In this document: positions 50,175 to 63,770 of the stretch, piece by piece
Layout: every line of letters starts with the position of its first letter
Numbering within the stretch: position 1 is the stretch's first letter
Notes under the pieces: model-generated
What the model saw: only the letters and a program-made list of their open reading frames with translations
Told to the model about the DNA's origin: nothing
Database searches by the model: none
Position numbers and translations under genes: made by a program
Assembly (NCBI GenBank): GCA_016197005.1
Contig: JACPWO010000002.1
Span: forward strand, 210,178-274,177
Direction of reading: 5' to 3'
Source: Candidatus Anderseniibacteriota bacterium
Lineage (GTDB): Bacteria; Patescibacteriota; Andersenbacteria; UBA10190
DNA: 64,000 nucleotides

Positions 50175-50396
50175 ATGATCACATATATTGTTATCGTTAT
50201 TATTGCCACCGCTGCGCTTTTAGTACTTCTTGTTAGTAAGCGCAAGCGTCCGGCAATACAGATTATGCCTACCCCTAAGCAATTACTTGATGGACAAGAA
50301 GACTCGGTAGCAGTTTCAGCAGAAAGTTTTGAAAAACTTCCACCTGACAAGGCACGAGAGTGGCTCGATGATTTTTTACAGAAACAGCAGAAATAA
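50175..50396 (+). CDS. small membrane-anchored hypothetical protein (73 aa)
   Basis: N-terminal TM helix IVIVIIATAALLVLLV, KRKRP, acidic tail. Confidence 0.4.
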   Translation: MITYIVIVIIATAALLVLLVSKRKRPAIQIMPTPKQLLDGQEDSVAVSAESFEKLPPDKAREWLDDFLQKQQK

Positions 50397-50400
50397 TTCT

Positions 50401-50957: not shown

Positions 50958-51920
50958 ATGGCTAAGATCCTAATAACGGGTGGTGCTGGCTTCATTGGCT
51001 CATTCGTTGCCAAGGCTCTCGTTGAAGCAGGGGAAGAAGTTGTTTTGCTTGATAACTTCGATGACTTTTTATATCCAGCTACCTTTAAGCAGGCTCGAAT
51101 TGAACATCTTTTCAAAAAAGAAAAGCGTCCCCAAGTTGTGACTGGGGATATTTTAGATGGAAAGCTCCTGGGAGATGTATTTACTGACGGTCAGTTTAAT
51201 GCCGTCCTTCACTTTGCTGCACTGGCTAATCCTGGTCGTTCCATGACAGAAGCAGGACCGTATACGCTCGTAAACGTAAATGGCACGGTCAATGTACTAG
51301 AGGCAGTATCCCAGCACGAAGTTCCGCACCTCATCGTTGCTGGCAGCTCATCGGTGTACGACGATACCCAAACTCCCTTCAAAGAAGATTCTTACCCGCT
51401 TCGTCCCCATTCTCCTTATGGGGCTTCGAAAGCAGCGATGGAGACATATGTGCAGTTGTGGCACGAAATGCACGGTATTCCGACCACTATTTTCCGTTTC
51501 TTTAGCGTGTACGGCCCGTGGGGACGACCAGATATGGCCCCGATGATTTTTACTGACAGCGTTATGAATGAAAAGAAACTAGAACTTTCCACTGACCGAC
51601 AGCGGGACTTTACTTACATCGATGATATTGTGAGCGGCCTTATGTTGGGTCTCGAACGTACATTAGAATTTGAAATTATTAATCTTGGTCGAGGGGAACC
51701 GCACCCAATTGAAGATTTCGTACAATCGATTGAAAAAGCTGCTGGCAAAAAAGCCATTGTTACTTCCCGGGAAGCACCCGCTGGCGAGATGCGAGTAACG
51801 TACGCAGATATATCAAAGGCAAAAAAGCTCTTCGGATATGCACCAAAAGTTTCAGTCGACGAAGGAGCAGCTAAATTGGTTGACTGGTACAAACAGTACG
51901 GTAGTCTAGTGGCTAGATGA
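50958..51920 (+). CDS. NAD-dependent nucleotide-sugar epimerase/dehydratase (SDR family)
   Basis: TGGAGFIGS Rossmann, YGASK catalytic YxxxK. Confidence 0.8.
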   Translation: MAKILITGGAGFIGSFVAKALVEAGEEVVLLDNFDDFLYPATFKQARIEHLFKKEKRPQVVTGDILDGKLLGDVFTDGQFNAVLHFAALANPGRSMTEAGPYTLVNVNGTVNVLEAVSQHEVPHLIVAGSSSVYDDTQTPFKEDSYPLRPHSPYGASKAAMETYVQLWHEMHGIPTTIFRFFSVYGPWGRPDMAPMIFTDSVMNEKKLELSTDRQRDFTYIDDIVSGLMLGLERTLEFEIINLGRGEPHPIEDFVQSIEKAAGKKAIVTSREAPAGEMRVTYADISKAKKLFGYAPKVSVDEGAAKLVDWYKQYGSLVAR

Positions 51921-52732
51921 ATACTGCAGAGCTTCAGGACGTAGCCCGACGACTTCGCTTTGATGCGATTGATGCTATTTACCGAGCACAATCTGGACAT
52001 CCCGGGAGCTCGCTTTCAACGATGGAAATGCTTGTTGCTCTCTATATTGGTGGCGTCCTAAAGCATGACCCAAAAAATCCACAGAGTGATGACCGTGATT
52101 ATTTTCTGTTAAGTAATGGTCATGCGTGTCCTGGTTGGTACGCTGTTTTAGCTGAAGCGGGATATTTTCCAAAAAATGAGCTACAAAAATTGCGCCAACT
52201 CGACGCTGCTGCTCAAGGTCATCCTCATCGCGGAAGTCTGCCAGGAGTTGAAATTTCCTCTGGCAGTTTAGGACAAGGACTCTCCGTTGGTATTGGTATT
52301 GCGGCTGGTCTCAAGCTTGCGGGCAAAACAAGTCACGTCTACGTCATGATGAGTGATGGTGAGCAACAGGAAGGATCAACCTGGGAGGCAATAATGTCCG
52401 CTCCCAAATTTGGTCTCACGAACCTGATTGCAATTGTAGATAAAAATAAGTTCCAGATTGATGGAGCCACTGAAGATGTTATGCCAGGGCTAGACCCATT
52501 GGCCGACAAGTATCGAGCCTTTAACTGGGATGTACAGGAAATTGACGGTCACCAGTTTGAAGAAATATTTTCGGCTCTCACCAAAGCACAAAGAGCAGAT
52601 AAACCCGCCGTCATTATTTCACACACTAGTCGTGGTAAAGGTGTGTCGTTTATGGAGAACAGTGATCACTGGCATGCTGGGGCAATTACCGATGAACAAT
52701 TTGCGACTGCTAAAAAAGATTTAGGAGTATAA
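51917..52732 (+). CDS. transketolase N-terminal subunit
   Basis: SGHPGSSLS TPP-binding motif; 271 aa split form. Confidence 0.88.
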   Translation: MNTAELQDVARRLRFDAIDAIYRAQSGHPGSSLSTMEMLVALYIGGVLKHDPKNPQSDDRDYFLLSNGHACPGWYAVLAEAGYFPKNELQKLRQLDAAAQGHPHRGSLPGVEISSGSLGQGLSVGIGIAAGLKLAGKTSHVYVMMSDGEQQEGSTWEAIMSAPKFGLTNLIAIVDKNKFQIDGATEDVMPGLDPLADKYRAFNWDVQEIDGHQFEEIFSALTKAQRADKPAVIISHTSRGKGVSFMENSDHWHAGAITDEQFATAKKDLGV

Positions 52733-52735
52733 CTT

Positions 52736-53671
52736 ATGGCCCAAGAACTTATTGCAACCAGGCAAGCATTTGGAGAAGAACTGACGGCAATTATGAAAGA
52801 ACATAATGAAGTAGTCGCCCTAACAGCCGATTTAGGAGAATCACTGCGCATGCTCAAGATCCGAGACGAGATGCCAAATCGATTCTTTGATACTGGAGTC
52901 GCGGAAGCAAATATGGTGGGAATGGCTGCTGGACTTTCGATTGCTGGCTTTATCCCGTTTGCCGGTACATTCGGTGTGTTTATGACCCGGGCTTTTGATC
53001 ACATTCGCGTCCAGATCTGCCAGAATAATCTGCAGGCGGTTATGGTAGGCTCTCATGGAGGAGTATCTAATGCCTTAGACGGGGCATCGGCTCATGCCTT
53101 AGAAGATATTGCCTATATGCGGGCGCTGCCTAACATGACTGTGTTATTTCCTTCCGACGCTAACCAAATGCGAGGAGCGGTACGAACTTTATTAAAACAC
53201 AAGGGTCCAACATATCTGCGCATGTACCGCGAACCAACACCAGTATTTTCTGATCCAAAACGTCCATTTGAAATTGGCAAAGCATATATAGAAAAAGAAG
53301 GAATAGATATTAGTATTATTGCGACTGGCCCACAGGTGGCGTTTGCGCTAGAGGCAGCAGAGCAACTAAAGAAAGATGGAATAAATGCAGAGGTTATAAA
53401 TGTCTCAACGATTCAACCGCTTGATGTCCAAGTAATTGCTCATTCGGCGACCAAGACTGGAAAAGTTCTGACAGTTGAAGATCACAGTATTAATGGTGGC
53501 TTGGGATCGGCAGTAGCAGAAGCGCTAGGCGAGAATGCACCAACACCTATGCGACGAATCGGCGTCCGTCAATTTGGAGAATCAGGAAAATATCATGATC
53601 TTATTGCTAAACTTGGAATTGACTCAGCTGGAATTAGAAAAGTGGCAAAAGATTTCTTGCAAACCAAGTGA
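52736..53671 (+). CDS. transketolase C-terminal subunit
   Basis: Pyr and C-terminal domains, 311 aa. Confidence 0.88.
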   Translation: MAQELIATRQAFGEELTAIMKEHNEVVALTADLGESLRMLKIRDEMPNRFFDTGVAEANMVGMAAGLSIAGFIPFAGTFGVFMTRAFDHIRVQICQNNLQAVMVGSHGGVSNALDGASAHALEDIAYMRALPNMTVLFPSDANQMRGAVRTLLKHKGPTYLRMYREPTPVFSDPKRPFEIGKAYIEKEGIDISIIATGPQVAFALEAAEQLKKDGINAEVINVSTIQPLDVQVIAHSATKTGKVLTVEDHSINGGLGSAVAEALGENAPTPMRRIGVRQFGESGKYHDLIAKLGIDSAGIRKVAKDFLQTK

Positions 53672-53715
53672 CAAACCACAAAGACACGATTGTATAGTTG
53701 TAAAAAAAATATAAA

Positions 53716-53750
53716 ACAAGCTCGATCAAGTTGATCGAGCTTTGATGTTT
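53716..53750 (+). terminator. terminator after transketolase genes
   Basis: AAGCUCGAUCAA/UUGAUCGAGCUU inverted repeat followed by TTTGATGTTT. Confidence 0.6.
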
Positions 53751-53752
53751 AC

Positions 53753-54067
53753 TCAAGCGGGCTCAAGGCAATAGCCGGAGAAGTTCTGAATACTTCCGTC
53801 TGGCATCTCCAAGCCTACAACCTGAGTATGTCCCACATCTTGGGTAGAGGACAGGCGAGAGTCACAGTGAGGCCAATGACCCCCGTCTTGTCTCTTGCAG
53901 GAACAATCCGGGGTGAGAGCAGTCGGTGCAGCATCAACGGCTACAACCCTAAATGGACCCTCACCATGCTCTTTTTCGAGGAGCAGAGAAGTCAAATTTC
54001 GGACGAACACTTTCTGTCCGTGCCGAAAGAGATGAAGTTTTATCTCAGCACGACCGGAATTCGGCAT
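53753..54067 (-). CDS. doubtful small ORF (104 aa) in a slightly GC-elevated spacer; possible histidine-phosphatase remnant (LFRHGQ)
   Basis: Only weak RHG-like motif; equally long ORF on + strand (53828..54082). Confidence 0.2.
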   Translation of the reverse strand: MPNSGRAEIKLHLFRHGQKVFVRNLTSLLLEKEHGEGPFRVVAVDAAPTALTPDCSCKRQDGGHWPHCDSRLSSTQDVGHTQVVGLEMPDGSIQNFSGYCLEPA

Positions 54068-54136
54068 AATGCCTCCATGTAGGTGGAAACTCCTTAGGGT
54101 GTGGAAAAGAACTTAAGATAATAGACTATAATTACA

Positions 54137-55012
54137 TTGATGTCAAATATCCGCTTAACGGAAACTAAGTTATTCATTGACGGTGGTGATCCCACAGAAA
54201 CCGCGGAAGCTACTCATTTCCTCACCCAGGCGGGATACAAGGGACTAGATGGCCAGACTACGAATCCAAGTTTAGTCGCAAAAAATCCAGATATTGTTGC
54301 GAAAATAAAAGCAGACGAAAAACTAACAGCGGCGGAACTACTGCAGAAATATAAAGAGATCGTACAAGATATAGAAAAGTCTGCAGCCGGCGAAATTAGT
54401 ATTGAGGTGTACGCTGATCAAAATACGACAGCAGAAGAAATGGTAGCGCAGGCGCGAGAGATGGGAACTTGGATACAATCACGAGTCATCAAACTTCCGA
54501 CGACGGAACAAGGTTTGTTGGCGGCGGAACAACTCAAGGGAGAGTTACCCTTAAACTTGACACTCTGTTTTTCCCAGCAGCAAGCTGCTGCAATTTACAG
54601 CGCAACTCAGGGATCAGCTTATCCTGTTTTCATTTCTCCTTTTATTGGTCGACTTGATGACAGAGGAGAAAACGGAATTGATCTCGTTGCAAACATCTTA
54701 CGAATGGTTGGCCATCAATCTCATGTGCAGATTCTCACTGCAAGTATTAGAAGTGTTGAACATATTTTAGGGGCTCTTGCTTTAGGTACTCATGCCTTGA
54801 CGCTCCCTTTTGCAAAAGCATTCAAACCCTGGGCAGAGAAAGGATTTCCGCTACCAGGCGAAGATTATGAATATCACTTCAACGGTTCACCGATTCCGTA
54901 CGAAGAATTGGATTTGGCAGCGGATTGGCGCTCGTTTGATCTCCACCACGATTTAACGGCTGTGGGCTTGCAAAAGTTCGTTGATGACTGGAATAGTTTG
55001 TTAGATGGATAA
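54137..55012 (+). CDS. tal: transaldolase
   Basis: LFIDGGDP, TTNPSL motifs. Confidence 0.85.
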   Translation: MMSNIRLTETKLFIDGGDPTETAEATHFLTQAGYKGLDGQTTNPSLVAKNPDIVAKIKADEKLTAAELLQKYKEIVQDIEKSAAGEISIEVYADQNTTAEEMVAQAREMGTWIQSRVIKLPTTEQGLLAAEQLKGELPLNLTLCFSQQQAAAIYSATQGSAYPVFISPFIGRLDDRGENGIDLVANILRMVGHQSHVQILTASIRSVEHILGALALGTHALTLPFAKAFKPWAEKGFPLPGEDYEYHFNGSPIPYEELDLAADWRSFDLHHDLTAVGLQKFVDDWNSLLDG

Positions 55013-55033
55013 ATCCGAGGCTACAATCTAATC

Positions 55034-55864
55034 ATGAAGACTCTCATCATTGGTGCTAAAGGCATGCTAGGAAGCATGCTGGCACAAGTGTTTTCCGACT
55101 GGAAACCCACGGCGTGGGATAGAGCCGAGGTAGATATTACTGATCTTCATGATGTACGGGAGAAGTTACGTGCCCTTGCTCCAAAAGTAATTATTAACGC
55201 TGCAGCATACACAGATGTTGATGGTGCTGAAACGCAGCAGGAATTGGCTTTTGCGGTCAACGAAGGAGGAGTGCGTAATCTCGCAATAGTTGCTAAAGAA
55301 ATTGATGCAACACTTATTCATTACAGCACTGATTATGTTTTTGATGGACAGAAAAAAGAGGGGTATTCAGAAAACGATTCACCGGGACCAGCCGTAAATG
55401 TATATGGGCAATCTAAATTAGCTGGTGAGCGAGCTTTAGTTGAAATAAAGCCGAAGTTTTATCTGCAGCGCAGTGCGTGGCTATATGGTCCAGGCGGGAA
55501 AAACTTTGTCGATACGATGCTGGAGATGGGAAAAACAAATGATAACGTAACGGTGGTAGCGGATCAGTATGGCAGTCCTACATTTACAAAAGACTTAGCG
55601 TTAGCAACTCGAGCTCTCGTATCTGAGAAGTATCCATTTGGCATTTACCATAGTGTTAACGTAGGAACGGCTAGTTGGTTTGATTTCGCTAATAAGATAT
55701 TCCAGATTAAGCATATGCAGGTAGACGCCAAGCCGGTGAATAGTACTGCCTTTCCACGTCCAGCCAGGCGTCCCCAATGGAGTGTGCTCTTGAACGAAAA
55801 TGGTCCTGCCATGAGACCCTGGGAAAAAGCGCTTGAGGAATACCTCGGTCCATCCGAAGAATAA
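55034..55864 (+). CDS. rmlD: dTDP-4-dehydrorhamnose reductase
   Basis: MKTLIIGAKGMLGS, YSTDYVFDG, YGQSK. Confidence 0.85.
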   Translation: MKTLIIGAKGMLGSMLAQVFSDWKPTAWDRAEVDITDLHDVREKLRALAPKVIINAAAYTDVDGAETQQELAFAVNEGGVRNLAIVAKEIDATLIHYSTDYVFDGQKKEGYSENDSPGPAVNVYGQSKLAGERALVEIKPKFYLQRSAWLYGPGGKNFVDTMLEMGKTNDNVTVVADQYGSPTFTKDLALATRALVSEKYPFGIYHSVNVGTASWFDFANKIFQIKHMQVDAKPVNSTAFPRPARRPQWSVLLNENGPAMRPWEKALEEYLGPSEE

Positions 55865-55957
55865 TTCGAATCCATTTCGCTTTCTTTAGGCTCACGGTAA
55901 ACTTTTGAGCTGTAGTGGAAACAGCAGCTAAATGGACTTGACTAAATATAACAATTA

Positions 55958-57568
55958 GTGTATTTTCCTGACATGAATAAAAACTACCAAAACCACTCTA
56001 ATGAGCTCCGAAGGGCTATTGATAGCCTTGAACCGTGGTATGACCAAGTGGAAAAAGCAGTAGACCTTCTTAAAGCCGGTTTTAAGGCTGGCAAAACCGT
56101 GTATGTTGCTGGTAATGGCGGATCCGCTACCTTAGCTCAGCATCTCTCTGATGAAATGGTTGGTCGCTATGAATCTGACCGCCCAGCGTACCCAGTAGTT
56201 GCGCTAACAACCGATGGAGCAGTCCTTACGGTTATTGGTAATGATTATGGCTACGAGCATACGTTTAGTCGGCAAATTGAGGCGCTCGGACGAGAAGGGG
56301 ATATCTTTATGGGCTTCTCTACATCAGGTACATCAAAAAATATTTTAATGGCAGCAGAAATGGCAAGGAAGAAAGGAATGAAAATCATTTCTTTCACCGG
56401 GAATACCGGAACGTTTAAAGACTTAGCTGACGTTGCTGTTGTTTCACCAGCGAAAGCCACTTCTCGCATTCAAGAACTTGATTTACACGCTATTCATTTA
56501 ATGTGTGAGGCCTTTGAGCCAGAACAAAAACAACGCCGTATGGGAATGGATCGGATTGAGGAGCTCTTGGGTCACTTTGTGGGCAAGCGGATTATGGTTG
56601 TTGGTGACGTCATGTTGGATAAATATCTGGCCGGGATTGTCGAACGAGTAAACCCAGAAGCTCCAGTTCCAGTACTGCGTGCTCAGCAAGAACGTGAAGT
56701 AACCGGGGGTGCTGGTAACGCTGCGAAAAATGCTGCCACTCTTGGCGCCAAAGTAATTTTAGTGAGCGTTGTTGGACAAGATGATATGGCTGCCCGCATT
56801 GACAAAGCTGCTCAGAGCGAAGGATATGAATCTCGATTCATTCAAGATCCTAGTCGTCCTACTATTAGCAAAACTCGTTTCTTAGCTAAGATTCGGGAAT
56901 CAAATATTTTATCGGCTGATCCGATTGAAGGTAGTCAACAACTTCTTCGTGTTGATTGGGAGAACCGTGACAAAATATCTGGTGTAGTTGAAGAAAAAGT
57001 CATTCAAACTATTAAACAGATTGCTGGTAACGGTATTGATGGCATCCTTGTATCGGATTACGACAAAGGCGTAATTACTAAAAACGTTGCTGCCGCCATC
57101 ATGGAAGTAGCTCGTAAGCACAATATCGTTGTTGCCGCTGACTTAAAGCCTTCCAATGGCCCTCTTTTCAAAGGAGCAAATATTATTAGCCCGAACCGTA
57201 AAGAGGCACACGAATATTTAGGCCTTGATCCAATTGCTCAACCGACTGGACCTGCCGAAATTGCCAAGCGTCTGCGAGAGAGAATGGATACTGGTGTATT
57301 CGTAACTCTTGGACCAGATGGAATGTATGTAAATGCCGGTGGAGTAAACCAGCATGTACCACAGGATCATGTCGTGAAAGTATATGACGTCTCTGGAGCT
57401 GGTGATACTGCTGTTGTTACGCTTCTTTTATCACGACTGGCTGGAGCTAATCCGCTTGAGGCTGCCAAGCTCGCGAATGCTGCTGGGGCAGTAGTTGTCG
57501 GAAAAGTTGGAACGGTTGCTATTACTCCCGACGAGCTGCGTAGCATGCTTTTGCATCGACATAAATAA
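55958..57568 (+). CDS. fusion protein: sedoheptulose-7-P isomerase (GmhA, SIS domain) + D-glycero-D-manno-heptose-7-P kinase (HldE/RfaE domain I)
   Basis: N-terminal GNGGSATLAQHLSDE SIS motif; C-terminal PfkB-type kinase MVVGDVMLDKY, VTGGAGNAAKN, DVSGAGDT. Confidence 0.8.
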   Translation: MYFPDMNKNYQNHSNELRRAIDSLEPWYDQVEKAVDLLKAGFKAGKTVYVAGNGGSATLAQHLSDEMVGRYESDRPAYPVVALTTDGAVLTVIGNDYGYEHTFSRQIEALGREGDIFMGFSTSGTSKNILMAAEMARKKGMKIISFTGNTGTFKDLADVAVVSPAKATSRIQELDLHAIHLMCEAFEPEQKQRRMGMDRIEELLGHFVGKRIMVVGDVMLDKYLAGIVERVNPEAPVPVLRAQQEREVTGGAGNAAKNAATLGAKVILVSVVGQDDMAARIDKAAQSEGYESRFIQDPSRPTISKTRFLAKIRESNILSADPIEGSQQLLRVDWENRDKISGVVEEKVIQTIKQIAGNGIDGILVSDYDKGVITKNVAAAIMEVARKHNIVVAADLKPSNGPLFKGANIISPNRKEAHEYLGLDPIAQPTGPAEIAKRLRERMDTGVFVTLGPDGMYVNAGGVNQHVPQDHVVKVYDVSGAGDTAVVTLLLSRLAGANPLEAAKLANAAGAVVVGKVGTVAITPDELRSMLLHRHK

Positions 57569-57605
57569 AAAAATACCTCTCGGCCGCGAAGGCGAAAGGT
57601 AAGAA

Positions 57606-58295
57606 CTACAACTGATGAAGCTTTTCAAGAGTGACCTCTTTCCAGCTTCGGAACACTGCCCTGGCGCCCGCCGCCAGGAGTTTTTCGACTGTCTCCTTAT
57701 AGTAAATGGGCATTCCGATAACGGGAGATCCGGCCGCAACTGCTGCTCGTACTCCCACTTCAGAACCCCCAAATACTAACTGCCGCGCTGGATCGATGTT
57801 GAAGCGTCGCGCTGTCTCCAGATATACGTCGGGAGCTGGCTTACCGTAAGCAACATCTTCGCGTAGGACTGTGTTGCGTTCGTTGAAGATGTCACCTAGT
57901 CCAGAAGCTCGAATGAGTCGCCACGTATAGCGAATTCCCCTAAGGGATCCAATGGCAATCGGCAGGTGCGCTTTCTCCGCTGCATTGAGGAATTTCACGA
58001 AACCTTCCCGAGGATTGATGTCCCCCCAGTGTTCGAGCTCAACAAGCTTCGCATCGTACTGGTCACGTTTAAGTTGAAGAATTTCCTCCGCATTTCCACC
58101 GGTGAGGTGCGCGAATCTCTTCGCAACTTCTGGATCACCCGAACCAATGTAGTCCGGCACTTTCTCCAGCATTTCCTCAAATGTACTCGCAATACGGAGA
58201 TCACTTGCTATCTCTAACCACAGGGGGGTGTGAGCAAGTGTTTCTAGGTCAATGCTGGCACCCTCTAAGTCGTTTGTTATAAGTTCAAAGTCCAT
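57606..58295 (-). CDS. HAD-superfamily hydrolase (subfamily IA-like) with divergent motif I
   Basis: C-terminal LVFGGSEVGVRAAVAAGSPVIGMP typical of HAD motif IV; motif I reads NDLEG instead of DxDGT. Confidence 0.6.
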   Translation of the reverse strand: MDFELITNDLEGASIDLETLAHTPLWLEIASDLRIASTFEEMLEKVPDYIGSGDPEVAKRFAHLTGGNAEEILQLKRDQYDAKLVELEHWGDINPREGFVKFLNAAEKAHLPIAIGSLRGIRYTWRLIRASGLGDIFNERNTVLREDVAYGKPAPDVYLETARRFNIDPARQLVFGGSEVGVRAAVAAGSPVIGMPIYYKETVEKLLAAGARAVFRSWKEVTLEKLHQL

Positions 58296-58363
58296 TCACG
58301 TTCTCCAAGAGAGGTCAGTAAGGAGTGTTGTTATTACTGGCATAAAGGCATAGTATTGTCAAT

Positions 58364-58903
58364 ATGCAAAAAGTTGTTTTCCTTGATCGGGATGGGACTC
58401 TCAATATAGATCCTGGTACTCCCGTTTTTTTGCCAGAGCATTGGGAGTGGCACGATAAAGTTTTTGAGGCACTTCGTCTGCTTCAGGATGCTGGCTACGT
58501 TCTTGCTGTCGTTACGAATCAAACTGGTATAGGTCATAAATTATATACTGAGGAGCAGATGGCAGAGTTACACCGTTTTATGTTGAAAGAACTAGAAGAA
58601 AAAGGTTTGGATATAGCTGTCGTGGCATATTGCCCGCATCATCGCGAAGAAAATTGTGATTGTCGAAAACCAAATATTGGCATGGCGAAACAGGTAGAAA
58701 AGAAAATAGGTACTATCGATTACGCGAGTAGCTGGATGATAGGAGATAAAGTAGCTGATTTTGAGTTTGGTAGAAATATAGGTGCAAAAACTACCCTTAT
58801 TCGCAGTCAATATTGGACCGAAGATACTTTAACGGCGCAGCCAGACCTGATTGTTGACTCACTCTTTGAGGCAGCGCAGCATATAACTAATGATCATGCG
58901 TAA
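58364..58903 (+). CDS. gmhB: D,D-heptose 1,7-bisphosphate phosphatase (GmhB, HAD IIIA)
   Basis: FLDRDGTLN motif I, CPHHREENCDCRKP zinc loop. Confidence 0.8.
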   Translation: MQKVVFLDRDGTLNIDPGTPVFLPEHWEWHDKVFEALRLLQDAGYVLAVVTNQTGIGHKLYTEEQMAELHRFMLKELEEKGLDIAVVAYCPHHREENCDCRKPNIGMAKQVEKKIGTIDYASSWMIGDKVADFEFGRNIGAKTTLIRSQYWTEDTLTAQPDLIVDSLFEAAQHITNDHA

Positions 58904-59966
58904 AGTTTCTGATAAAATTACAACTCGCGAAGAACTTGCTCCGAAAGTAGCCAAGTGGCGCGAGGAAGGAAAAATCGTCGGCTTCACCTCTGGAAGTTTT
59001 GATATTATTCACGCTGGTCACGTTAGCTATCTAGAGAAAGCAAAAGAAAAGTGTGACATCCTTATTGCTGGAATAAACACTGATGCTTCTGTTCAAAGTT
59101 ATAAAGGGCCGGATCGACCAATTGTCCCAGAGGCAGGGCGAGTCAAAATGATGGCTGGTCTTGAGAGCATAGATTACGTCTTTACATTTGAAGAGCGACG
59201 TAATCGCACAAATCTTGAGGTTCTTAAGCCGTCTTTATATATCAAAGCGGGTGACTATACCGCTAAGCAATTAACGAGCGGGGATGTGGTAAAGAAATAC
59301 GGGGGAGATATTCTCCTGCTGCCGATGGAAGAAGGATTTTCTACTACTAATCTCATTAAGAAAATAGTGAAGCTGTATGGTGGCACGGTAGAAGATGAAG
59401 CTGACGAGAGTGTGAAAGCAAAGACAGAAAAGCGAGATCCACAAAAGGCCATACTTATTGATCGTGACGGGACAATTAATGAAGATATTGAGTATTTACA
59501 TGAGCCGGAAAAATTTAAGCTGTTGCCGAATGTTGGTGAAGGATTGAAGAAATTTCAAGAAATGGGATACAAAATTGCGGTCATTACGTTGCAAGCAGGT
59601 ATAGGTGTTGGTTATTTTACCAAGGAAGACTTTTTTAAGGTAAACCGTGAGATGTTTAAGCAACTGGCGCCATTTGGTATCACGATTGATAAAATATACT
59701 TTGCTACGCACAGTAAAACAGAAGATGGGAAAAATCCGAAAGAGGCTCTCCTCGAACGAGCATGTGAAGAATTGGACCTCGATCTAACTCAATCTATAGT
59801 CATTGGTGATAAAACGACTGATCTTTCTGTGGGTGAAGTAAGAGGTTGTATAAAGATTGGTGTTAAGACAGGGAAAGCCTTGCAAGATGGACAAGTGGAA
59901 GTAACACCAGACTATATAGCGAAGGATATTTTGGATGCAGCAACGTGGATAGAATCACGGAAATAG
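58890..59966 (+). CDS. fusion protein: heptose-1-P adenylyltransferase (HldE/RfaE domain II, cytidylyltransferase fold) + GmhB-like HAD phosphatase
   Basis: N-terminal GFTSGSFDIIHAGHVSYL; C-terminal ILIDRDGTINED HAD domain. Confidence 0.78.
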   Translation: MIMRKVSDKITTREELAPKVAKWREEGKIVGFTSGSFDIIHAGHVSYLEKAKEKCDILIAGINTDASVQSYKGPDRPIVPEAGRVKMMAGLESIDYVFTFEERRNRTNLEVLKPSLYIKAGDYTAKQLTSGDVVKKYGGDILLLPMEEGFSTTNLIKKIVKLYGGTVEDEADESVKAKTEKRDPQKAILIDRDGTINEDIEYLHEPEKFKLLPNVGEGLKKFQEMGYKIAVITLQAGIGVGYFTKEDFFKVNREMFKQLAPFGITIDKIYFATHSKTEDGKNPKEALLERACEELDLDLTQSIVIGDKTTDLSVGEVRGCIKIGVKTGKALQDGQVEVTPDYIAKDILDAATWIESRK

Positions 59967-60706
59967 CAAGCATCGCCCAGAAGGCTGGTGCGTGGTTGGC
60001 AGAGATGTTCACACGTAATGAATCTTCTTCAGCAGCTGATATTGCCTCACAGCAGATTATTGTGCCTGAGTTACAAAAGTATTTTCCTACTATTCCAATT
60101 TTAGCCGAGGAACGTATGGAAGGTGCTTCACTACTCCCTTCCAGTGATGATACGAAGGACCTTCCGTTTACATATTGGTCAGTTGACCCACTAGATGGCA
60201 GTGCTGTTTTTGATAACAAATGTTCTGAATGGGCAGTAAGTATTGCCCTTATTGAAAACCACAGACCAACACTCGGAGTATTGCATTTTCCGAGATTTGA
60301 AATAACCGTACAAGCAGAAGAAGGAAAAGGGTGCTGGCTAAACGGAAAGCAAATTCACGTTTCTGCCAAACGACCTCTTAGTGAGTGGCTTATTGGAGTA
60401 GATCTTTGTAGATCAGTTGAAGACGAATTTGTGGTAGATACGCTCCTGCCCCTTATTCGTAAATTCAGATACGTGCGGAATTTTCCTACAGTTGCCAGTA
60501 ATCTAGAACTGTTATTGGGTCACACTGGTCTCTGGATTACTAATAATGTGAGAAATTGGGATCTAGCTGCGGCTGCTATTGCTGTGCAAGAAGCAGGTGG
60601 AGTCGTGCAGCAACTTGATGGGCAACCAATAAATTGGAAAAGCGTACGTATGCCTCCTATTATTTCCGTTGCAGATAAAAGCCTCCTTGCGGAAATACCA
60701 TCTTAA
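59945..60706 (+). CDS. inositol monophosphatase / CysQ family phosphatase
   Basis: YWSVDPLDGSAVF metal-binding motif. Confidence 0.7.
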   Translation: MDRITEIASIAQKAGAWLAEMFTRNESSSAADIASQQIIVPELQKYFPTIPILAEERMEGASLLPSSDDTKDLPFTYWSVDPLDGSAVFDNKCSEWAVSIALIENHRPTLGVLHFPRFEITVQAEEGKGCWLNGKQIHVSAKRPLSEWLIGVDLCRSVEDEFVVDTLLPLIRKFRYVRNFPTVASNLELLLGHTGLWITNNVRNWDLAAAAIAVQEAGGVVQQLDGQPINWKSVRMPPIISVADKSLLAEIPS

Positions 60707-60732
60707 TGGTATAGAAATGGTGCCACAATTGT

Positions 60733-61374
60733 GTGGCAATAGCTTCAATTCGAATCCTGGAGTACAACATGGAGACACGGCCGATTCTTATAACCGATCA
60801 CGCCGGAACGGTAGTCAAAGAGGTCTGGGATGGAAAGAACAAGCGATATGGCTATCCCTTCGCTAACGCTGGCATTGAACTTTCATATGGCGCTGGCAAA
60901 GCGCTCCGTGCTTTTCAAGACAGCGGGCTGCTAATTGTCGTGGCAGCTAGTCATTCTGGAGTGGCACGTGACTACTATACCGAGGAGCAAATGCATCAAC
61001 ATCATGCCGAGTTAAATCAGATACTCGAGAATGAATTTGGTGTGCATGTGATGGCGCTGGGTCTTTGTCCACATCTGCCCGATGCAGGATGCGAGTGTCG
61101 GAAACCTGGTATTGGCATGCCAATACAGATCCAGCAACAGCTACGGGAGAAAGAGATCGAGATTGATCTCGCCCGCAGTATTGGAGTGGGTGATAAAATA
61201 GAGGATTGCCAGATGGCTCGTAACTTTGAGATTCGAACGACGATCCTGATCGAAGGCGGACAATGGACCCGCAACCGTCTCCCGAAGGATTCCCCTGAGA
61301 CTGTCATCGTTGGCAGCTTAATTGAAGGAGCATACTGGTTTCGGACAGGTAAGACGTGCCTTGATCTCGTATGA
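60733..61374 (+). CDS. GmhB-like HAD IIIA paralog with altered catalytic motif (TDHAGT in place of DRDGT)
   Basis: CPHLPDAGCECRKPG zinc loop conserved; second Asp of DxD replaced. Confidence 0.65.
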   Translation: MAIASIRILEYNMETRPILITDHAGTVVKEVWDGKNKRYGYPFANAGIELSYGAGKALRAFQDSGLLIVVAASHSGVARDYYTEEQMHQHHAELNQILENEFGVHVMALGLCPHLPDAGCECRKPGIGMPIQIQQQLREKEIEIDLARSIGVGDKIEDCQMARNFEIRTTILIEGGQWTRNRLPKDSPETVIVGSLIEGAYWFRTGKTCLDLV

Positions 61375-61517
61375 CCATGCCTCATAACGCGCCTCGTTCA
61401 AATTGGACGGGGTTTTTCTTTTGACAAAACCTGAATATTTTGCTATTACATACAAGTCGCCATGGGGCGATAACGGAGAAATCCGCAACTGAAACTTGCC
61501 AATTTGGAGAGTCAACA

Positions 61518-62123
61518 ATGTCGCAAGAAATCATTTTGAAAGTCGCGCCGCTGGGTGATGCAGTTATGTGTGCTACTATTGCAAGCAGACTCATTTCCTA
61601 CGGGCTTTCTGTTCGTATGGCCGTCAGCAAGCTCGGAGCAACCCTGTTGGGGAATACTGGTATTCCTTTGACTACGGAAGCTGTCACTGCGCCGCTTGTG
61701 ATCGATGTGTGTGACTATTTGAAACAAGATTGTCATCACGCAAAATTCAAAGGGAGTATTGTCAACGACAACTACCTTCGGGGTGGGTTTGCTCATCTTG
61801 TGACGTGGATGACTCGTCACATTGAAATGGAGTTGGGGCGCATGGAAGTTACATTGCCGACTAGTCTTGATGTTGGTCCTTGCAATGTGAAATTGCCGGT
61901 TACAGAGCTTCAACAGAAAAAGGTACACCAACTTCTTTTAACAGAAGGTATTATGTCGGGGAAGCGGCCGCTTGTGATTATGGCAGCGGAGGCAGGGAGT
62001 CCGAACCGTCGGATTAGTCCGGAAACGTTGCAAGAAGTTGCAATAGGTCTTGAAGAACAAATGGATATTGCGCTTCTGACACCCTTGCCGACTCTTAGCA
62101 TGCAACTCGTAATTAAGGGTTAA
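61518..62123 (+). CDS. GT9 family heptosyltransferase, N-terminal half only (C-terminal nucleotide-sugar domain missing; apparently interrupted by integrated element)
   Basis: ORF 61440..62123 trimmed to MSQEIILKVAPLGDAVMCAT (GT9 N-terminal ALGD motif) preceded by GGAG; only about 200 aa vs about 330 expected. Confidence 0.6.
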   Translation: MSQEIILKVAPLGDAVMCATIASRLISYGLSVRMAVSKLGATLLGNTGIPLTTEAVTAPLVIDVCDYLKQDCHHAKFKGSIVNDNYLRGGFAHLVTWMTRHIEMELGRMEVTLPTSLDVGPCNVKLPVTELQQKKVHQLLLTEGIMSGKRPLVIMAAEAGSPNRRISPETLQEVAIGLEEQMDIALLTPLPTLSMQLVIKG

Positions 62124-63719
62124 GTTCGGTGATGGTAGCTCAATATGGGCCTGAATATCAAACTCCTGGCGCCATACCACTATTCTATCAACTACACCCC
62201 GAATCGTCCGCTTTTTGCTCTGCGGCAGCATGGTCTTAAAGACGCGAGTTGCCTCAATGCACATCGCCCATAGCTCATCTTCGGGGCTGAGAGAGTTAGT
62301 CTGGCTTTGCTGCTGGAGCTCTTCCACTTGTTTGTGGTATCCCGCCTCTCGGTTTTTACTTTCACGAACCAGCTTCTGGTAAATGCCGAGCTCCATATCG
62401 CCTGTGCCGAGCCCCAGGGCGTATTGCTCCCGAATTTTTACTTCTTTGTCGATGAGCTCTTGTAGTCGCGCATTATCTTGTTGAGTGCTTGTATTTTCAG
62501 CGACGGCTTGCAGATGAAATTTGCCGTGCTTATGGAGCAGGTCAGGATCAGTCATGTGAGTCACGAGACCGGTCCACACCGCTTTATCCAAAGCCTTTGT
62601 GTTGACACCTGGATAGGTGCACTCAGTCGGCAGGGGATGCTTTAAGATTTTTTGCGTGCAGCTGTAATATGAGTGTCCGACTTGTCGGCCGTTGCCGGTG
62701 CGCTTGTAGCCGCAACCGCACATCACCAGGCTGGTTAGAAGATAGGCATTCTTCCGATTTTTCTTGGCGTACCTTTGATTGCGCGTCAGCATTTCCAGTG
62801 CCTTCTCGTATGCCCCATCGTCTTCGATGATGGTTGGCACCGCATACGGAATCCACTCTTCTTTGGGACGTACTTTCCGGCTACTCTTTTTTACCTTCTT
62901 ATACTTTTCATGGTTAGTCGGATTTTTCGCTACAATCGCTTCGTTCTTGTTGAAGTAGATAAAACCTTTAGAGTAGGTGTCATATTTGAGAGTGCGGATG
63001 ATTGATTCTTTGACCCAGTGATCCTGCTTTTTCTTAGGCGGCATAATGCCGAGCTTGTAGAGCTTCTCAATAATTTTTCGCAGGCTTACCTGCTCATGCA
63101 CGAACCATTTATAGATCAGGCGGACTACTCGCGCCTCGGGTTCGCTGATCTCGTACCGAGGAGGCTGACCGGGTTCGCGGACAATGCGGTAGCCATAGAT
63201 GGCGTGGCCGTTAATGAGCTTGCCCGCTTTCGCTTTGAACATTTTGCCGCGCCGGAACCGCTCGGCGATTTTTAAGCGTTCATATTCATGGAAAATACCT
63301 TGTACCGATTGCATCAGTTTGGCTTCAGGTGTTATGGCATCAATGTCGTGGAGGGTCACGAACTTGAGACCGAGCTCGCTGAGTTCGTTGATGACTAACT
63401 CTTGATGGTAAAAGATACGAGAGAGACGTCCTCGGTCGTAGACATACAGAATCTGGAACTTGCTTGCAGTAGCGGCATCACGCATGGCATCAAGGCCGGG
63501 GCGCTGCAAAATTGAGCCGGTCCAGCCGTCATCCTTGAACAGAAACTCCGGCGGGAGAATGTGGCCATCATTTTTGATGCGGGATACGACCTCATCGATC
63601 TGCGACTCGATGGTAGCTTCATTCTCCTGTCCCTCAGTCGAGACACGCACGTACGCTGCGGCGATGAGCGATTGCACGGCAGGGGAAGGAGTAATAGTAT
63701 TGGTTTTAGGTGATTGCAT
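61938..63719 (-). CDS. large serine recombinase (resolvase/invertase N-domain + recombinase + zinc-ribbon domains)
   Basis: AAYVRVSTEGQ catalytic Ser motif, 593 aa, coiled-coil/zinc region; 3' end overlaps GT9 ORF. Confidence 0.85.
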   Translation of the reverse strand: MQSPKTNTITPSPAVQSLIAAAYVRVSTEGQENEATIESQIDEVVSRIKNDGHILPPEFLFKDDGWTGSILQRPGLDAMRDAATASKFQILYVYDRGRLSRIFYHQELVINELSELGLKFVTLHDIDAITPEAKLMQSVQGIFHEYERLKIAERFRRGKMFKAKAGKLINGHAIYGYRIVREPGQPPRYEISEPEARVVRLIYKWFVHEQVSLRKIIEKLYKLGIMPPKKKQDHWVKESIIRTLKYDTYSKGFIYFNKNEAIVAKNPTNHEKYKKVKKSSRKVRPKEEWIPYAVPTIIEDDGAYEKALEMLTRNQRYAKKNRKNAYLLTSLVMCGCGYKRTGNGRQVGHSYYSCTQKILKHPLPTECTYPGVNTKALDKAVWTGLVTHMTDPDLLHKHGKFHLQAVAENTSTQQDNARLQELIDKEVKIREQYALGLGTGDMELGIYQKLVRESKNREAGYHKQVEELQQQSQTNSLSPEDELWAMCIEATRVFKTMLPQSKKRTIRGVVDRIVVWRQEFDIQAHIELPSPNLTLNYELHAKSRQGCQKRNIHLFFKTYCNFLQRFRTNPTVRTPCLRCHNHKRPLPRHNTFC

Positions 63720-63770
63720 ATTAGGTCATCTGCCAGAGGCTCCAGTTCCAAATGAGGCCTCTGGTTTTAT

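What the first reader, a model, noticed from the sequence alone, without database searches (positions are those of the whole stretch)
51917..62123. Transketolase/transaldolase placed directly upstream of an ADP-heptose pathway built from unusual fusions plus redundant GmhB-like phosphatases
Split transketolase and transaldolase, which generate sedoheptulose-7-P, sit directly upstream of the ADP-heptose enzymes. The four activities are arranged differently from Gram-negative organisms:
- GmhA is fused to the HldE kinase domain (55958..57568).
- The HldE adenylyltransferase domain is fused to a GmhB-type HAD phosphatase (58890..59966).
- A canonical stand-alone GmhB (58364..58903) is also present.
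- A further GmhB-like paralog (60733..61374) has the second catalytic Asp of DxDGT replaced (TDHAGT), a possible pseudo-phosphatase or altered specificity.
- A divergently transcribed HAD (57606..58295) also has a degenerate motif I (NDLEG).
- An IMPase/CysQ-family phosphatase (59945..60706) is also present.
- A GT9 heptosyltransferase is the likely consumer.

The layout suggests a self-contained S7P to nucleotide-heptose to glycoconjugate supply line in an organism that likely lacks LPS.
Basis: partly seen in the sequence, partly recalled or inferred. Interest (0 to 1): 0.65.

Follow-up and report, generated by a model that had tools for sequence, protein, structure and literature searches.

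The report
Heptose sugar operon in a CPR bacterium
This is a sugar-precursor operon of an ultra-small groundwater bacterium (Candidatus Andersenbacteria) that encodes the known four-step nucleotide-heptose pathway as two fused enzymes plus spare phosphatases; it is an unusual packaging of ordinary chemistry, and the supposed heptose-using transferase next to it is a truncated remnant beside a mobile element.

Summary
The window is from a Candidatus Andersenbacteria (CPR/Patescibacteria) groundwater MAG.

**Confirmed**

**Corrections**
1. The nucleotidyltransferase-GmhB fusion is common: more than 1,000 database proteins across many phyla.
2. The GmhA-kinase fusion is rare. It arose recently by stop-codon loss between overlapping genes. 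Other lineages carry the reverse order.
3. Transketolase/transaldolase sit inside the cluster in only 4 of 8 close relatives and in 0 of 80 diverse heptose loci.
4. The HAD-IA protein keeps its nucleophile Asp. Its motif I is D-L-E-G, as in its two orthologs examined.
5. The paralog also lacks the motif II Thr and has no close relative anywhere. It is probably decaying.
6. The "GT9" ORF is only the N-terminal ~200 residues of a ~350-residue divergent GT9-like protein. It ends where a serine-integrase element begins.

**Verdict**
This is a surface-glycan precursor operon (dTDP-rhamnose genes plus NDP-heptose genes). It is a variant packaging of a known pathway, and interest is modest.

The parts
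50329..50955 (+). rmlC, dTDP-4-dehydrorhamnose 3,5-epimerase. NCBI calls the start at 50401.
   Evidence: PF00908, 219 bits. TIGR01221, 209 bits, above its cutoff of 156. Conserved at this position in L003, L084, L085 and L090.
50958..51920 (+). Extended-SDR NDP-sugar epimerase/dehydratase of unassigned specificity. It cannot be called HldD.
   Evidence: PF01370 and PF16363. Best NCBIfam scores are GalE 158, RmlB 150 and HldD 119 bits, all far below their cutoffs. It overlaps the TK-N start by 4 nt.
51917..52732 (+). Transketolase, N-terminal (thiamine-diphosphate-binding) subunit.
   Evidence: PF00456, 197 bits. Orthologs at the same place in L003, L084 and L092; absent from the cluster in L085, L090, L091 and the JGI contig.
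52736..53671 (+). Transketolase, C-terminal (pyrimidine-binding plus C-terminal domain) subunit.
   Evidence: PF02779, 142 bits, and PF02780, 121 bits.
54137..55012 (+). Transaldolase/FSA-family aldolase.
   Evidence: PF00923, 129 bits. 61-70% identical orthologs in L003 and L084.
55034..55864 (+). rmlD, dTDP-4-dehydrorhamnose reductase.
   Evidence: TIGR01214, 304 bits, above its cutoff of 224.
55973..57568 (+). Didomain GmhA (S7P isomerase, about aa 20-185) fused to an HldA/HldE-I-type heptose-7-P kinase (about aa 195-531). The linker is EPEQKQRRMG. These are pathway steps 1 and 2.
   Evidence: Domain scores: SIS_2, PfkB, TIGR00441 180 bits, TIGR02198 290 bits. PDB alignments to Burkholderia GmhA (150 bits) and HldA 4E84 (154 bits) keep AQH..E, STSG, IQE..H and GAGD. 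The 531-aa product equals P0001 of NCBI. Unfused relatives have an ATGA overlap at this junction.
57606..58295 (-). HAD-IA (beta-PGM/CbbY-like) sugar-phosphatase-like protein. Motif I is D-L-E-G. Motif IV is degenerate in this copy (FGGS).
   Evidence: PF00702 and PF13419. TIGR02009, 56 bits. Alignment with the L003 and L084 orthologs. PDB hits are HAD-IA v3, CbbY and HDHD1A.
58364..58903 (+). Canonical stand-alone GmhB (heptose-1,7-bisphosphate 7-phosphatase). This is step 3.
   Evidence: NF006506, 164 bits. 98 bits to E. coli GmhB 3L8E. It keeps DRDGT, TNQ, the CPH..CDC zinc loop, RKP and GDK..D. Orthologs are present in L084, L085 and L090.
58896..59966 (+). Didomain HldC/HldE-II-type heptose-1-P nucleotidyltransferase (about aa 20-160) fused to a GmhB-type phosphatase (about aa 185-357) that lacks the zinc loop. 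These are steps 4 and 3.
   Evidence: TIGR02199, 163 bits, and NF006506, 132 bits. HAGH and MEEGFSTT motifs are present, with no Arg at STT-5. The phosphatase domain keeps DRDGT, T and GDK..D, but has ATH..DG in place of CPH..CxC and KNPK in place of RKP.
59945..60706 (+). IMPase/CysQ-family phosphatase of unassigned substrate.
   Evidence: PF00459, 119 bits. CysQ 97, HisN 80 and FBPase/IMPase 70 bits, all below cutoffs. The DPLDGS and WDLAAA motifs are visible in the translation. Homologs follow the heptose genes in L084 and L090.
60769..61374 (+). Orphan GmhB-like paralog with two catalytic substitutions: Asp+2 to Ala, and motif II Thr to Ala. Probably inactive or decaying.
   Evidence: NF006506, 102 bits. 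Alignment A1. The homolog search returned only itself plus 3 hits of at most 39% identity. There is no ortholog in L003, L084 or L085.
61391..61413 (+). Terminator-like hairpin with a T-run. Likely the end of the gmhB / hldC-gmhB / IMPase / paralog transcription unit.
61518..62123 (+). Truncated N-terminal ~200 aa of a divergent GT9-like glycosyltransferase. Homology ends near 62093.
   Evidence: No Pfam hit at E<=10. Five remote homologs of 298-372 aa align over query residues 4-193. Four of them have weak PF01075 hits of 20-29 bits. Alignment A4 shows the DSGPxHIAAA region and the C-terminus missing. The C-terminal half was not found within 10 kb.
61938..63719 (-). Large serine integrase at the left end of an integrative element that abuts and truncates the GT9-like gene. 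It is not part of the pathway.
   Evidence: PF00239, PF07508 and PF13408. phrog_95 integrase covers aa 5-531 of 593, so the last ~60 codons run antisense into the remnant. The element continues with an excisionase-like HTH, a small resolvase and a primase-like ORF.

Best explanation
**What it is.** The region is a nucleotide-sugar supply operon for surface glycans of a monoderm CPR bacterium (Candidatus Andersenbacteria).

- GmhA and the heptose-7-P 1-kinase are one polypeptide (steps 1 and 2).
- The heptose-1-P nucleotidyltransferase and a GmhB-type 7-phosphatase are a second polypeptide (steps 4 and 3).
- A canonical zinc-loop GmhB is encoded separately.
- The heptose genes are interleaved with rmlC and rmlD. 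In relatives they are followed by rmlB, rmlA, GT2, GT4 and PMT_2 genes. The products therefore probably feed one rhamnose- and heptose-containing cell-surface glycan.

**How the arrangement arose.**
- Transketolase and transaldolase were inserted into this operon in one Andersenbacteria sub-lineage. They make the precursor S7P, but they are most simply the cell's general non-oxidative pentose-phosphate enzymes. Co-expression is plausible; dedicated coupling is inferred, not shown.
- The GmhA-kinase fusion arose recently by loss of the stop codon between translationally coupled genes.
- The nucleotidyltransferase-GmhB fusion is old and widespread.

**The extras.** At the 3' end, the orphan GmhB-like paralog (two catalytic residues replaced) and the truncated GT9-like ORF lie against an integrative element and are probably non-functional remnants. 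The real heptose-using transferase must be encoded elsewhere.

**Shown versus inferred.** Shown: domain content, motif states, synteny, truncation. Inferred: enzyme activities, nucleotide specificity, fate of the heptose.
For: **Source and domain assignments**
- The source is GCA_016178385.1, Candidatus Andersenbacteria.
- The heptose families are by far the best hits for all four activities.
- Catalytic and binding motifs are kept in GmhA and the kinase, in the nucleotidyltransferase (HAGH, GFSTT) and in the stand-alone GmhB.
- In the fused phosphatase domain, D11, D13 and D136 are invariant and T53 is Thr or Ser (110 T, 8 S) across 118 fused homologs.
- rmlC and rmlD score above their equivalog cutoffs.

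**Synteny**
- The order LepA-rmlC-(SDR)-[TK-TK-TAL]-rmlD-gmhA/kinase-(gmhB)-hldC::gmhB-...-rmlB-rmlA-GT2-GT4 is seen in L003, L084, L085, L090 and L092.
- Genuine GT9 genes flank the same heptose genes in L091, a JGI contig and L004.

**Origin of the GmhA-kinase fusion**
- L085 and L090 have ATGA overlaps and L092 a 4-nt gap exactly where the window has the linker EPEQKQRRMG.

**Literature**
- CPR are reported as monoderm with an S-layer (PMC6146748).
- An ADP-heptose module has been noted in the CPR class Paceibacteria (PMC9166423).
- The absence of Arg at STT-5 fits ADP preference under the rule summarised in PMC11461863.

**Remnants**
-.
Against: - The kinase (290 vs 345 bits), nucleotidyltransferase (163 vs 181.5), GmhA (180 vs 209) and GmhB (164 vs 178) all score below NCBIfam's equivalog cutoffs. 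Exact specificity is therefore not guaranteed.
- No HldD epimerase can be assigned.
- In this clade the fused phosphatase domain has lost the zinc loop and has Asn at the position of the catalytic Lys111.
- No intact heptosyltransferase is present in the window. The rmlB-rmlA-GT2-GT4 block of the relatives is missing from the window and from the next 10 kb.
- No experiment exists for any of these proteins.
Confidence: 0.75

Rival explanations
1. This is a dedicated, self-contained supply line in which cluster-specific transketolase and transaldolase exist to feed S7P into heptose synthesis. The adjacent GT9 enzyme consumes the product. The extra GmhB-like and HAD proteins are specialised pseudo-phosphatases or altered-specificity enzymes of the pathway.
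For: - TK-N overlaps the upstream sugar-nucleotide SDR gene by 4 nt, and TK/TAL stay inside the cluster in four relatives that have diverged to about 70% identity.
- The HAD-IA gene moves position and strand but stays in the cluster in three genomes, and its D-L-E-G motif is conserved.
- Stand-alone GmhB and IMPase recur in relatives.
- A full-length member of the same divergent GT9-like family lies 3 kb from the heptose genes in L004.
Against: - TK/TAL are absent from the cluster in 4 of 8 relatives and from 80 of 80 diverse heptose loci.
- The GT9-like ORF lacks its whole donor-binding half.
- The paralog has no ortholog in 5.8 billion proteins, so no selection for a special role can be shown.
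- The window's HAD-IA copy alone has lost the motif IV acidic pair.
Confidence: 0.2
2. The product is not ADP-D,D-heptose. It is another activated heptose (CDP-, UDP- or GDP-linked), or a modified heptose such as a 6-deoxy or epimerised form made with the neighbouring SDR, RmlC-like and RmlD-like enzymes, as in Campylobacter or Burkholderia capsule heptose pathways.
For: - The kinase and nucleotidyltransferase score below equivalog cutoffs.
- An unassigned SDR epimerase/dehydratase, a cupin 3,5-epimerase and a 4-reductase are interleaved with the heptose genes.
- HldE-type nucleotidyltransferases can be NTP-promiscuous, and the STTR5 rule is not absolute (PMC11461863).
Against: - RmlC and RmlD exceed their dTDP-rhamnose equivalog cutoffs, and relatives carry rmlA and rmlB a few genes downstream. 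The simple reading is therefore a separate dTDP-rhamnose pathway.
- The kinase is PfkB-type and the transferase HldC-type. Neither is of the GHMP/HddC type used by GDP-alpha-heptose pathways.
- There is no Arg at STT-5 in the window protein, nor in any of the 35 listed homologs in which the motif was found.
Confidence: 0.15
3. In this clade the fused GmhB domain is catalytically dead or re-purposed, for example as a scaffold or a heptose-phosphate-binding module. The stand-alone canonical GmhB is then the real pathway phosphatase, which would explain the apparent redundancy.
For: - All 37 Andersenbacteria-type fused proteins lack the CxH..CxC zinc loop, and 36 of 37 have Asn where 81 of 81 zinc-type fused proteins have the motif III Lys.
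- A canonical GmhB sits immediately upstream in the window, L084, L085 and L090.
Against: - L003, L092, L091 and the JGI contig have the zinc-less fused domain but no adjacent stand-alone GmhB.
- The motif I DxD and the motif IV Asp are invariant and the motif II residue is Thr or Ser. A Lys two residues downstream (NPK) is kept in 36 of 37, which suggests a shifted register rather than loss.
Confidence: 0.2

Closest known systems
[quoted passage not shown] Split HldA/HldC in Burkholderia and Neisseria.
   Same: - The same four enzyme families in the same chemical order.
- Best PDB matches are Burkholderia HldA (4E84) and GmhA, and E. coli GmhB (3L8E).
- Catalytic motifs are retained.
   Different: - The domains are paired differently: isomerase-kinase and nucleotidyltransferase-phosphatase, instead of kinase-nucleotidyltransferase.
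- No assignable HldD.
- The host is a monoderm CPR bacterium without an LPS context.
- The scores are below equivalog cutoffs.
The three published architectures of heptose nucleotidyltransferases (Tang et al., Science 2024, as summarised in PMC11573728 and PMC11461863): monodomain, kinase-nucleotidyltransferase, and isomerase-kinase-nucleotidyltransferase.
   Same: - An HldC-type nucleotidyltransferase with the xxGxSTT motif.
- Isomerase-kinase linkage also exists in the tridomain class.
   Different: - Here the nucleotidyltransferase is fused to the phosphatase, and the isomerase-kinase pair lacks the transferase.
- Neither arrangement is among the three listed classes.
- I read only the commentaries, not the Science paper itself.
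'2+2' heptose clusters in other uncultured lineages: L004 ('archaeon' MAG), L091 (GCA_053532455.1) and JGI 3300072015.
   Same: - An HldC-GmhB didomain 53-70% identical to the window's.
- The isomerase and kinase are in one polypeptide.
- Surface-glycan genes are nearby.
   Different: - There the order is kinase-GmhA (the reverse).
- A second PfkB kinase and intact GT9 genes are present.
- No TK/TAL and no rml genes are interleaved.
GDP-D-glycero-alpha-D-manno-heptose pathway of Gram-positive S-layer glycans (Aneurinibacillus thermoaerophilus GmhA, HddA, GmhB, HddC). This comparison is from my own knowledge of Kneidinger et al. 2001.
   Same: - Heptose made from S7P in a monoderm organism for a surface glycan.
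- GmhA and GmhB are shared.
   Different: - That pathway uses a GHMP-family kinase and an NTP_transferase-family guanylyltransferase.
- The window has a PfkB kinase and a cytidylyltransferase-like HldC.
- The window therefore encodes the beta/ADP-type route, not the alpha/GDP-type.

Membership tests
NDP-beta-D-manno-heptose biosynthesis (GmhA / HldA / GmhB / HldC) | GmhA: SIS-fold S7P isomerase with the His/Glu/Gln/His site and the STSG phosphate loop. | tested here: met
   TIGR00441, 180 bits: best family, but below the 209 cutoff. The alignment to Burkholderia GmhA keeps AQH..E, STSG and IQE..H.
NDP-beta-D-manno-heptose biosynthesis (GmhA / HldA / GmhB / HldC) | PfkB-family heptose-7-P 1-kinase (HldA / HldE domain I). 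| tested here: inconclusive
   TIGR02198, 290 bits, is the best hit by about 220 bits over ribokinase but is below the 345 cutoff. 154 bits to HldA 4E84, with GAGD kept. Substrate not assayed.
NDP-beta-D-manno-heptose biosynthesis (GmhA / HldA / GmhB / HldC) | GmhB: HAD-IIIA motifs I-IV (DxD, T, K, GDxxxD), with or without the CxH..CxC zinc loop. | tested here: met
   The stand-alone GmhB has all motifs and the zinc loop. The fused domain has motifs I, II and IV, but lacks the zinc loop and has KNPK in place of RKP.
NDP-beta-D-manno-heptose biosynthesis (GmhA / HldA / GmhB / HldC) | HldC / HldE domain II nucleotidyltransferase with HxGH and (F/L)xxGxSTT. | tested here: met
   TIGR02199, 163 bits: best family, cutoff 181.5. 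HAGH and MEEGFSTT are present.
NDP-beta-D-manno-heptose biosynthesis (GmhA / HldA / GmhB / HldC) | Formation of NDP-heptose from S7P. | not testable with these tools
   Needs enzyme assays.
[quoted passage not shown] | An HldD equivalog is present. | tested here: not met
   The only candidate SDR (50958-51920) scores 119 bits on TIGR02197 (cutoff 275). That is lower than its GalE and RmlB scores.
GT9 heptosyltransferase (for ORF 61518-62123) | Match to Pfam PF01075 Glyco_transf_9. | tested here: not met
   No family at E<=10, for either start codon.
GT9 heptosyltransferase (for ORF 61518-62123) | C-terminal GT-B domain with the D(S/T)GxxH(I/L/V)AAA donor-binding motif. | tested here: not met
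   The ORF stops after ALLTPLP, whereas its homologs continue for about 150 more residues that include DSGPxHIAAA. That motif is the part that matches WaaF 1PSW. The missing half was not found within 10 kb.
GT9 heptosyltransferase (for ORF 61518-62123) | Homology of the N-terminal domain to GT9-like proteins. | tested here: inconclusive
   Five remote homologs (E 4e-8 to 2e-6, 29-37% identity). Four have weak PF01075 hits of 20-29 bits, and two of those reach the 22-bit cutoff.
Active HAD phosphatase (for paralog 60769-61374) | Motif I DxD (nucleophile plus general acid/base) and the motif II Thr/Ser. | tested here: not met
   D-H-A in place of D-R-D. VVAASHSG in place of VVVTNQSG, so T53 aligns to Ala with a Ser at the next position. 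Motifs III (RKP) and IV (GDK..D) and the zinc loop are kept.
GDP-alpha-heptose (HddA/HddC) pathway of S-layer or capsule glycans | GHMP-family kinase and NTP_transferase-family guanylyltransferase. | tested here: not met
   The kinase is PfkB and the transferase is CTP_transf_like.

The most novel reading that the evidence does not exclude
In this CPR lineage, pairwise fusion of consecutive pathway steps together with physical linkage to the S7P-producing enzymes would form a channelled heptose 'assembly line'. The clade-specific fused GmhB domain (zinc loop lost, motif III Lys shifted), the conserved D-x-E HAD-IA protein and the IMPase-family protein would then have diverged into new roles in heptose-phosphate metabolism. 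Possible roles are anomer-specific proofreading, a beta-PGM-like 7-P/1-P heptose mutase bypass, or a sedoheptulose-bisphosphatase feeding S7P. Separately, the serine-integrase element could act as an excisable switch that interrupts the heptosyltransferase gene.
Probability: 0.08. Interest if true: 0.55.

Novelty: new variant of a known kind. Interest (0 to 1): 0.3.

Why it matters
**Main point.** Nucleotide-heptose synthesis, best known from Gram-negative LPS, is conserved in a branch of the ultra-small CPR bacteria. These have no outer membrane and live attached to other cells. There it is packaged with rhamnose and surface-glycan genes. The heptose presumably decorates an S-layer or wall glycan that could matter for host attachment.

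**Architecture.** The '2+2' domain packaging (isomerase-kinase plus nucleotidyltransferase-phosphatase) is not among the three enzyme architectures listed in the commentaries on the 2024 cross-kingdom survey (PMC11461863, PMC11573728), although the second didomain is abundant in databases. It is usually annotated only as 'HAD-IIIA family hydrolase'. Recognising it would improve annotation and pathway calls in metagenomes.

**Limits.** The chemistry is expected to be the ordinary one, and the more exotic-looking pieces (the degenerate paralog and the GT9 ORF) look like decay next to a mobile element. The finding is useful but not surprising.

Tried and rejected
- **Exact look-up of the 536-aa ORF from GTG 55958.** Nothing found. 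The databases call the ATG at 55973 (531 aa).
- **Scan of GTDB genomes with an alignment of fused HldC-GmhB proteins.** It could not be used for close synteny. I used it instead as a diverse background set for TK/TAL linkage. Close relatives came from exact-protein look-ups.
- **Search for the missing C-terminal half of the GT9-like gene.** I looked across the integrative element and 10 kb beyond it with five full-length homologs. Only noise came back. A weak 65-aa match at 62212-62373 lies inside the integrase gene and was dismissed.
- **Profile search of the GT9-like family against PDB.** One marginal hit: WaaF 1PSW, E 0.31, at the DSGxxHxAAA motif. This is too weak to claim membership.
- **Is the SDR at 50958-51920 HldD?** Rejected on scores.
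- **Do RmlC and RmlD modify heptose?** Not favoured, because both pass the dTDP-rhamnose equivalog cutoffs.
- **Rfam scan.** No RNA family in 50-64 kb.
- **Promoter scan.** Counts equal the shuffled expectation (21 vs 21.1), so only the single 11/12 match was noted.
- **Search for orthologs of rmlA, rmlB, GT2, GT4 or true GT9 in the window.** None found, apart from unrelated paralogous hits.
- **Literature searches.** A search combining GmhB, HldC and 'fusion' returned one paper, which I did not open, so I found no published description of an HldC-GmhB fusion. A search for SepB of septacidin returned nothing.

Full report
**Source and setting**

The GmhA-kinase protein of the window is 100% identical to an NCBI protein of a Candidatus Andersenbacteria MAG. 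The exact-protein look-up places the window on contig JACOTL010000006.1 of GCA_016178385.1, a 492-kb contig, and on several Logan assemblies of related runs. NCBI taxonomy puts Andersenbacteria in the Patescibacteria/Parcubacteria group. CPR bacteria are described as monoderm with a distinct S-layer (PMC6146748).

**Check of the observation**

Pfam and NCBIfam give these assignments:

| Coordinates | Assignment | Score |
|---|---|---|
| 51917-52732 | Transketolase N | PF00456, 197 bits |
| 52736-53671 | Transketolase C | PF02779 and PF02780 |
| 54137-55012 | Transaldolase | PF00923, 129 bits |
| 55034-55864 | RmlD | TIGR01214, 304 bits, above cutoff |
| 55958/55973-57568 | SIS_2/GmhA plus HldE domain I kinase | TIGR00441, 180 bits; TIGR02198, 290 bits |
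| 57606-58295 (-) | HAD-IA hydrolase | PF00702, PF13419 |
| 58364-58903 | GmhB | NF006506, 164 bits |
| 58890-59966 | HldE domain II plus GmhB | TIGR02199, 163 bits; NF006506, 132 bits |
| 59945-60706 | IMPase family | PF00459, 119 bits |
| 60733-61374 | GmhB-like | 102 bits |

The heptose-family scores are the best hits by wide margins, but all lie somewhat below NCBIfam's equivalog cutoffs. Upstream are RmlC (above cutoff) and an extended SDR that cannot be assigned: GalE 158, RmlB 150 and HldD 119 bits.

Alignments to solved structures show the expected catalytic and binding motifs:
- GmhA and the kinase, against Burkholderia GmhA and HldA 4E84.
- The stand-alone GmhB, against E. coli 3L8E.

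**The three GmhB-like sequences**

I aligned them to E. coli GmhB.
- The stand-alone protein is canonical: DRDGT, TNQ, the CPH..CDC zinc loop, RKP and GDK..D.
It also has Ala at the motif II Thr (VVAASHSG). It keeps the zinc loop, RKP and motif IV.
- The fused domain keeps motifs I, II and IV. It has ATH..DG instead of the zinc ligands, and KNPK instead of RKP.

Across 118 fused homologs, 81 have the zinc loop and RKP. The other 37 have no zinc loop, and 36 of these have Asn at the Lys111 position. These 37 are exactly the ones at least 60% identical to the window. In that clade a Lys two residues downstream (NPK) is kept in 36 of 37. So is another Lys in HSKT. I read this as a shifted motif III rather than loss, but that is inference.

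**The HAD-IA protein**

The two orthologs read FDLEG, and D-L-E-G is invariant across the three proteins. The nucleophile is kept and Asp+2 is Glu, as a family trait. What is odd in this genome's copy is motif IV: FGGS instead of FEDS.

**How unusual are the fusions?**

*Nucleotidyltransferase-GmhB didomain.* It is common.
- The search gave 1,111 hits at E<=1e-10.
- All of the best 120 that are longer than 330 aa (118 proteins) are full-length didomains. Named sources include KSB1, Sumerlaeota and Bacteroidetes.
- The GTDB scan found it in MAGs labelled archaeon, Micrarchaeota, Nanoarchaeota, Saccharibacteria, Bdellovibrionota, Geobacter and others.

*GmhA-kinase didomain.* It is rare.
- Among the best 120 kinase homologs, only P0001-P0006 have this order.
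- Three others (P0025, P0084, P0091), and the proteins in L004, L091 and a JGI contig, have the reverse order, kinase-GmhA.
- In L085 and L090 the two genes are separate and overlap by ATGA. In L092 they are 4 nt apart. In the window, L003 and L084 the same junction reads CEAFEPEQKQRR(M/L)(G/S)M.
- The fusion is therefore a recent stop-codon loss between translationally coupled genes.

*Published classes.* According to the commentaries on Tang et al. 2024, three architectures of heptose nucleotidyltransferases are recognised: monodomain, kinase-transferase, and isomerase-kinase-transferase (PMC11461863, PMC11573728). The window's 2+2 packaging is not among them, but it is clearly a repackaging of the same four activities. 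The transferase has MEEGFSTT, with no Arg five residues before STT. Under the rule summarised in those papers this fits ADP-heptose, although the rule is not absolute.

**Synteny**

Eight related loci were compared (tblastn).

| Locus | TK/TAL in cluster | GmhA and kinase | Stand-alone GmhB | HAD-IA | IMPase | GT9 |
|---|---|---|---|---|---|---|
| Window | yes | fused | yes | yes | yes | remnant only |
| L003 | yes | fused | no | yes | no | none |
| L084 | yes | fused | yes | yes | yes | none |
| L092 | yes | separate | no | no | no | none |
| L085 | no | separate | yes | no | no | none |
| L090 | no | separate | yes | no | yes | none |
| L091 | no | fused, reverse order | no | no | no | two intact genes |
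| JGI contig | no | fused, reverse order | no | no | no | two intact genes |

- The common frame in the Andersenbacteria-type loci is LepA, rmlC, (SDR), rmlD, gmhA, kinase, (gmhB), hldC::gmhB, then rmlB, rmlA, GT2, GT4 and a further SDR gene; a PMT_2-type transferase follows in L084. L091 and the JGI contig are arranged differently.
- TK-TK-TAL is inserted between the SDR and rmlD.
- L091 and the JGI contig also carry a second PfkB kinase.
- None of 80 diverse heptose loci from GTDB has TK or TAL within 10 kb.

TK/TAL linkage is thus one lineage-specific insertion that has been retained down to about 70% protein identity. It is not a general design. Because the enzymes are the standard non-oxidative pentose-phosphate pair, I consider them housekeeping genes that happen to supply S7P. 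The window also carries a separate glycolysis block. A dedicated role is possible but unshown.

**The supposed consumer**

ORF 61440-62123 has no Pfam hit even at E<=10, and NCBI did not call it.
- An exhaustive HMMER search found itself plus five remote homologs of 298-372 aa. These align only to its residues 4-193.
- Four of them carry weak PF01075 (GT9) hits that lie mostly beyond the part the window ORF covers.
- In the alignment the window ORF stops after ALLTPLP. The homologs continue through DSGPxHIAAA and a Cys-rich C-terminus. That motif gives the family's only, marginal, PDB match: WaaF.
- The integrase on the opposite strand matches phage integrase profiles only over residues 5-531 of 593. 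Its last ~60 codons therefore run antisense across the remnant.
- The element continues with an excisionase-like HTH, a small resolvase and a primase-like protein.
- The missing half of the transferase is not within 10 kb. The rmlB-rmlA-GT2-GT4 block is also absent there.
- A full-length member of the same divergent family lies 3 kb from the heptose genes in L004. The family link to heptose is therefore plausible, but this copy is broken.

The neighbouring paralog is likewise an orphan. The homolog search returned only itself and three GmhB proteins at 35-39% identity. It has no ortholog in L003, L084 or L085.

**Interpretation**

The best-supported reading is a surface-glycan precursor operon that makes dTDP-rhamnose intermediates and an NDP-beta-heptose, probably ADP-D,D-heptose. 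It uses two didomain enzymes and a separate GmhB.
- Conserved accessories: IMPase and HAD-IA, of unknown substrate.
- A decaying 3' edge: the paralog and the GT9 remnant, next to an integrative element.
- An upstream cluster is a candidate user of the activated sugars. It encodes a phosphoglycosyl transferase, three GT4 enzymes, DUF4012 and MurJ at 38431-48296. That link is inference.
- An ADP-heptose module in CPR (class Paceibacteria) has already been noted at the KEGG-module level (PMC9166423).

**Verdict**

This is a variant packaging of a known pathway and not a new system. Interest 0.3.

Noticed in passing
window 61938-64000 and beyond (L086 3750-11782): An integrative element of about 8.4 kb. 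It carries a large serine integrase, an HTH_17 excisionase-like protein, a small resolvase/invertase, a 743-aa primase-like protein and several unknown ORFs. It abuts the truncated GT9-like ORF. Beyond it lie SNase, ThiF, an autoinducer-synthase/FeeM-like acyltransferase and a histidine kinase, where relatives have the rmlB-rmlA-GT2-GT4 block.
   Followed up: partly
window 53672-54136: A 465-bp spacer between transketolase-C and transaldolase that is absent in L003, L084 and L092. It holds a 104-aa ORF on the minus strand (53753-54067), an 11/12 sigma-70-like promoter (54146-54118) and a perfect 11-bp bidirectional hairpin (53718-53742). There is no family match above noise.
   Followed up: partly
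window 38431-48296: A surface-polysaccharide assembly cluster: a Bac_transf phosphoglycosyl transferase, three GT4 glycosyltransferases, two unknown ORFs, DUF4012 and a MurJ-type flippase. It lies directly upstream of LepA and the sugar-nucleotide operon and is a candidate user of the activated sugars.
   Followed up: partly
window 29842-35317: A glycolysis block: TIM, a PfkB-family sugar kinase of unassigned substrate (30642-31643), GAPDH, PGK and enolase. It is preceded by divergent GT2 and GalT-like genes (28028-29996).
   Followed up: no
window 37883-38304 (-) and 6254-6441: A bacterial class A RNase P RNA (202 bits), and a divergently oriented pair of tRNA-Pro genes (GGG and CGG anticodons).
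   Followed up: no
L004 4411-16334; L091 5069-14260; JGI 3300072015 contig: A recurrent alternative heptose cluster: kinase-GmhA (reverse-order fusion), HldC-GmhB, a second PfkB kinase, intact GT9 genes and a PMT_2 transferase. L004 also carries a radical SAM gene, and L091 and the JGI contig an Epimerase_2 gene. L004 is labelled 'archaeon', yet its HldC-GmhB is the GTDB hit most similar to the CPR proteins (53%).
   Followed up: partly
window 59442-59960 (fused GmhB domain) and 37 homologs: A clade-wide remodelling of the GmhB active-site loop. The CxH..CxC zinc ligands are lost, RKP becomes (K/R)NPK, and a new near-invariant Lys appears in HSKT. Motifs I, II and IV stay invariant.
   Followed up: partly
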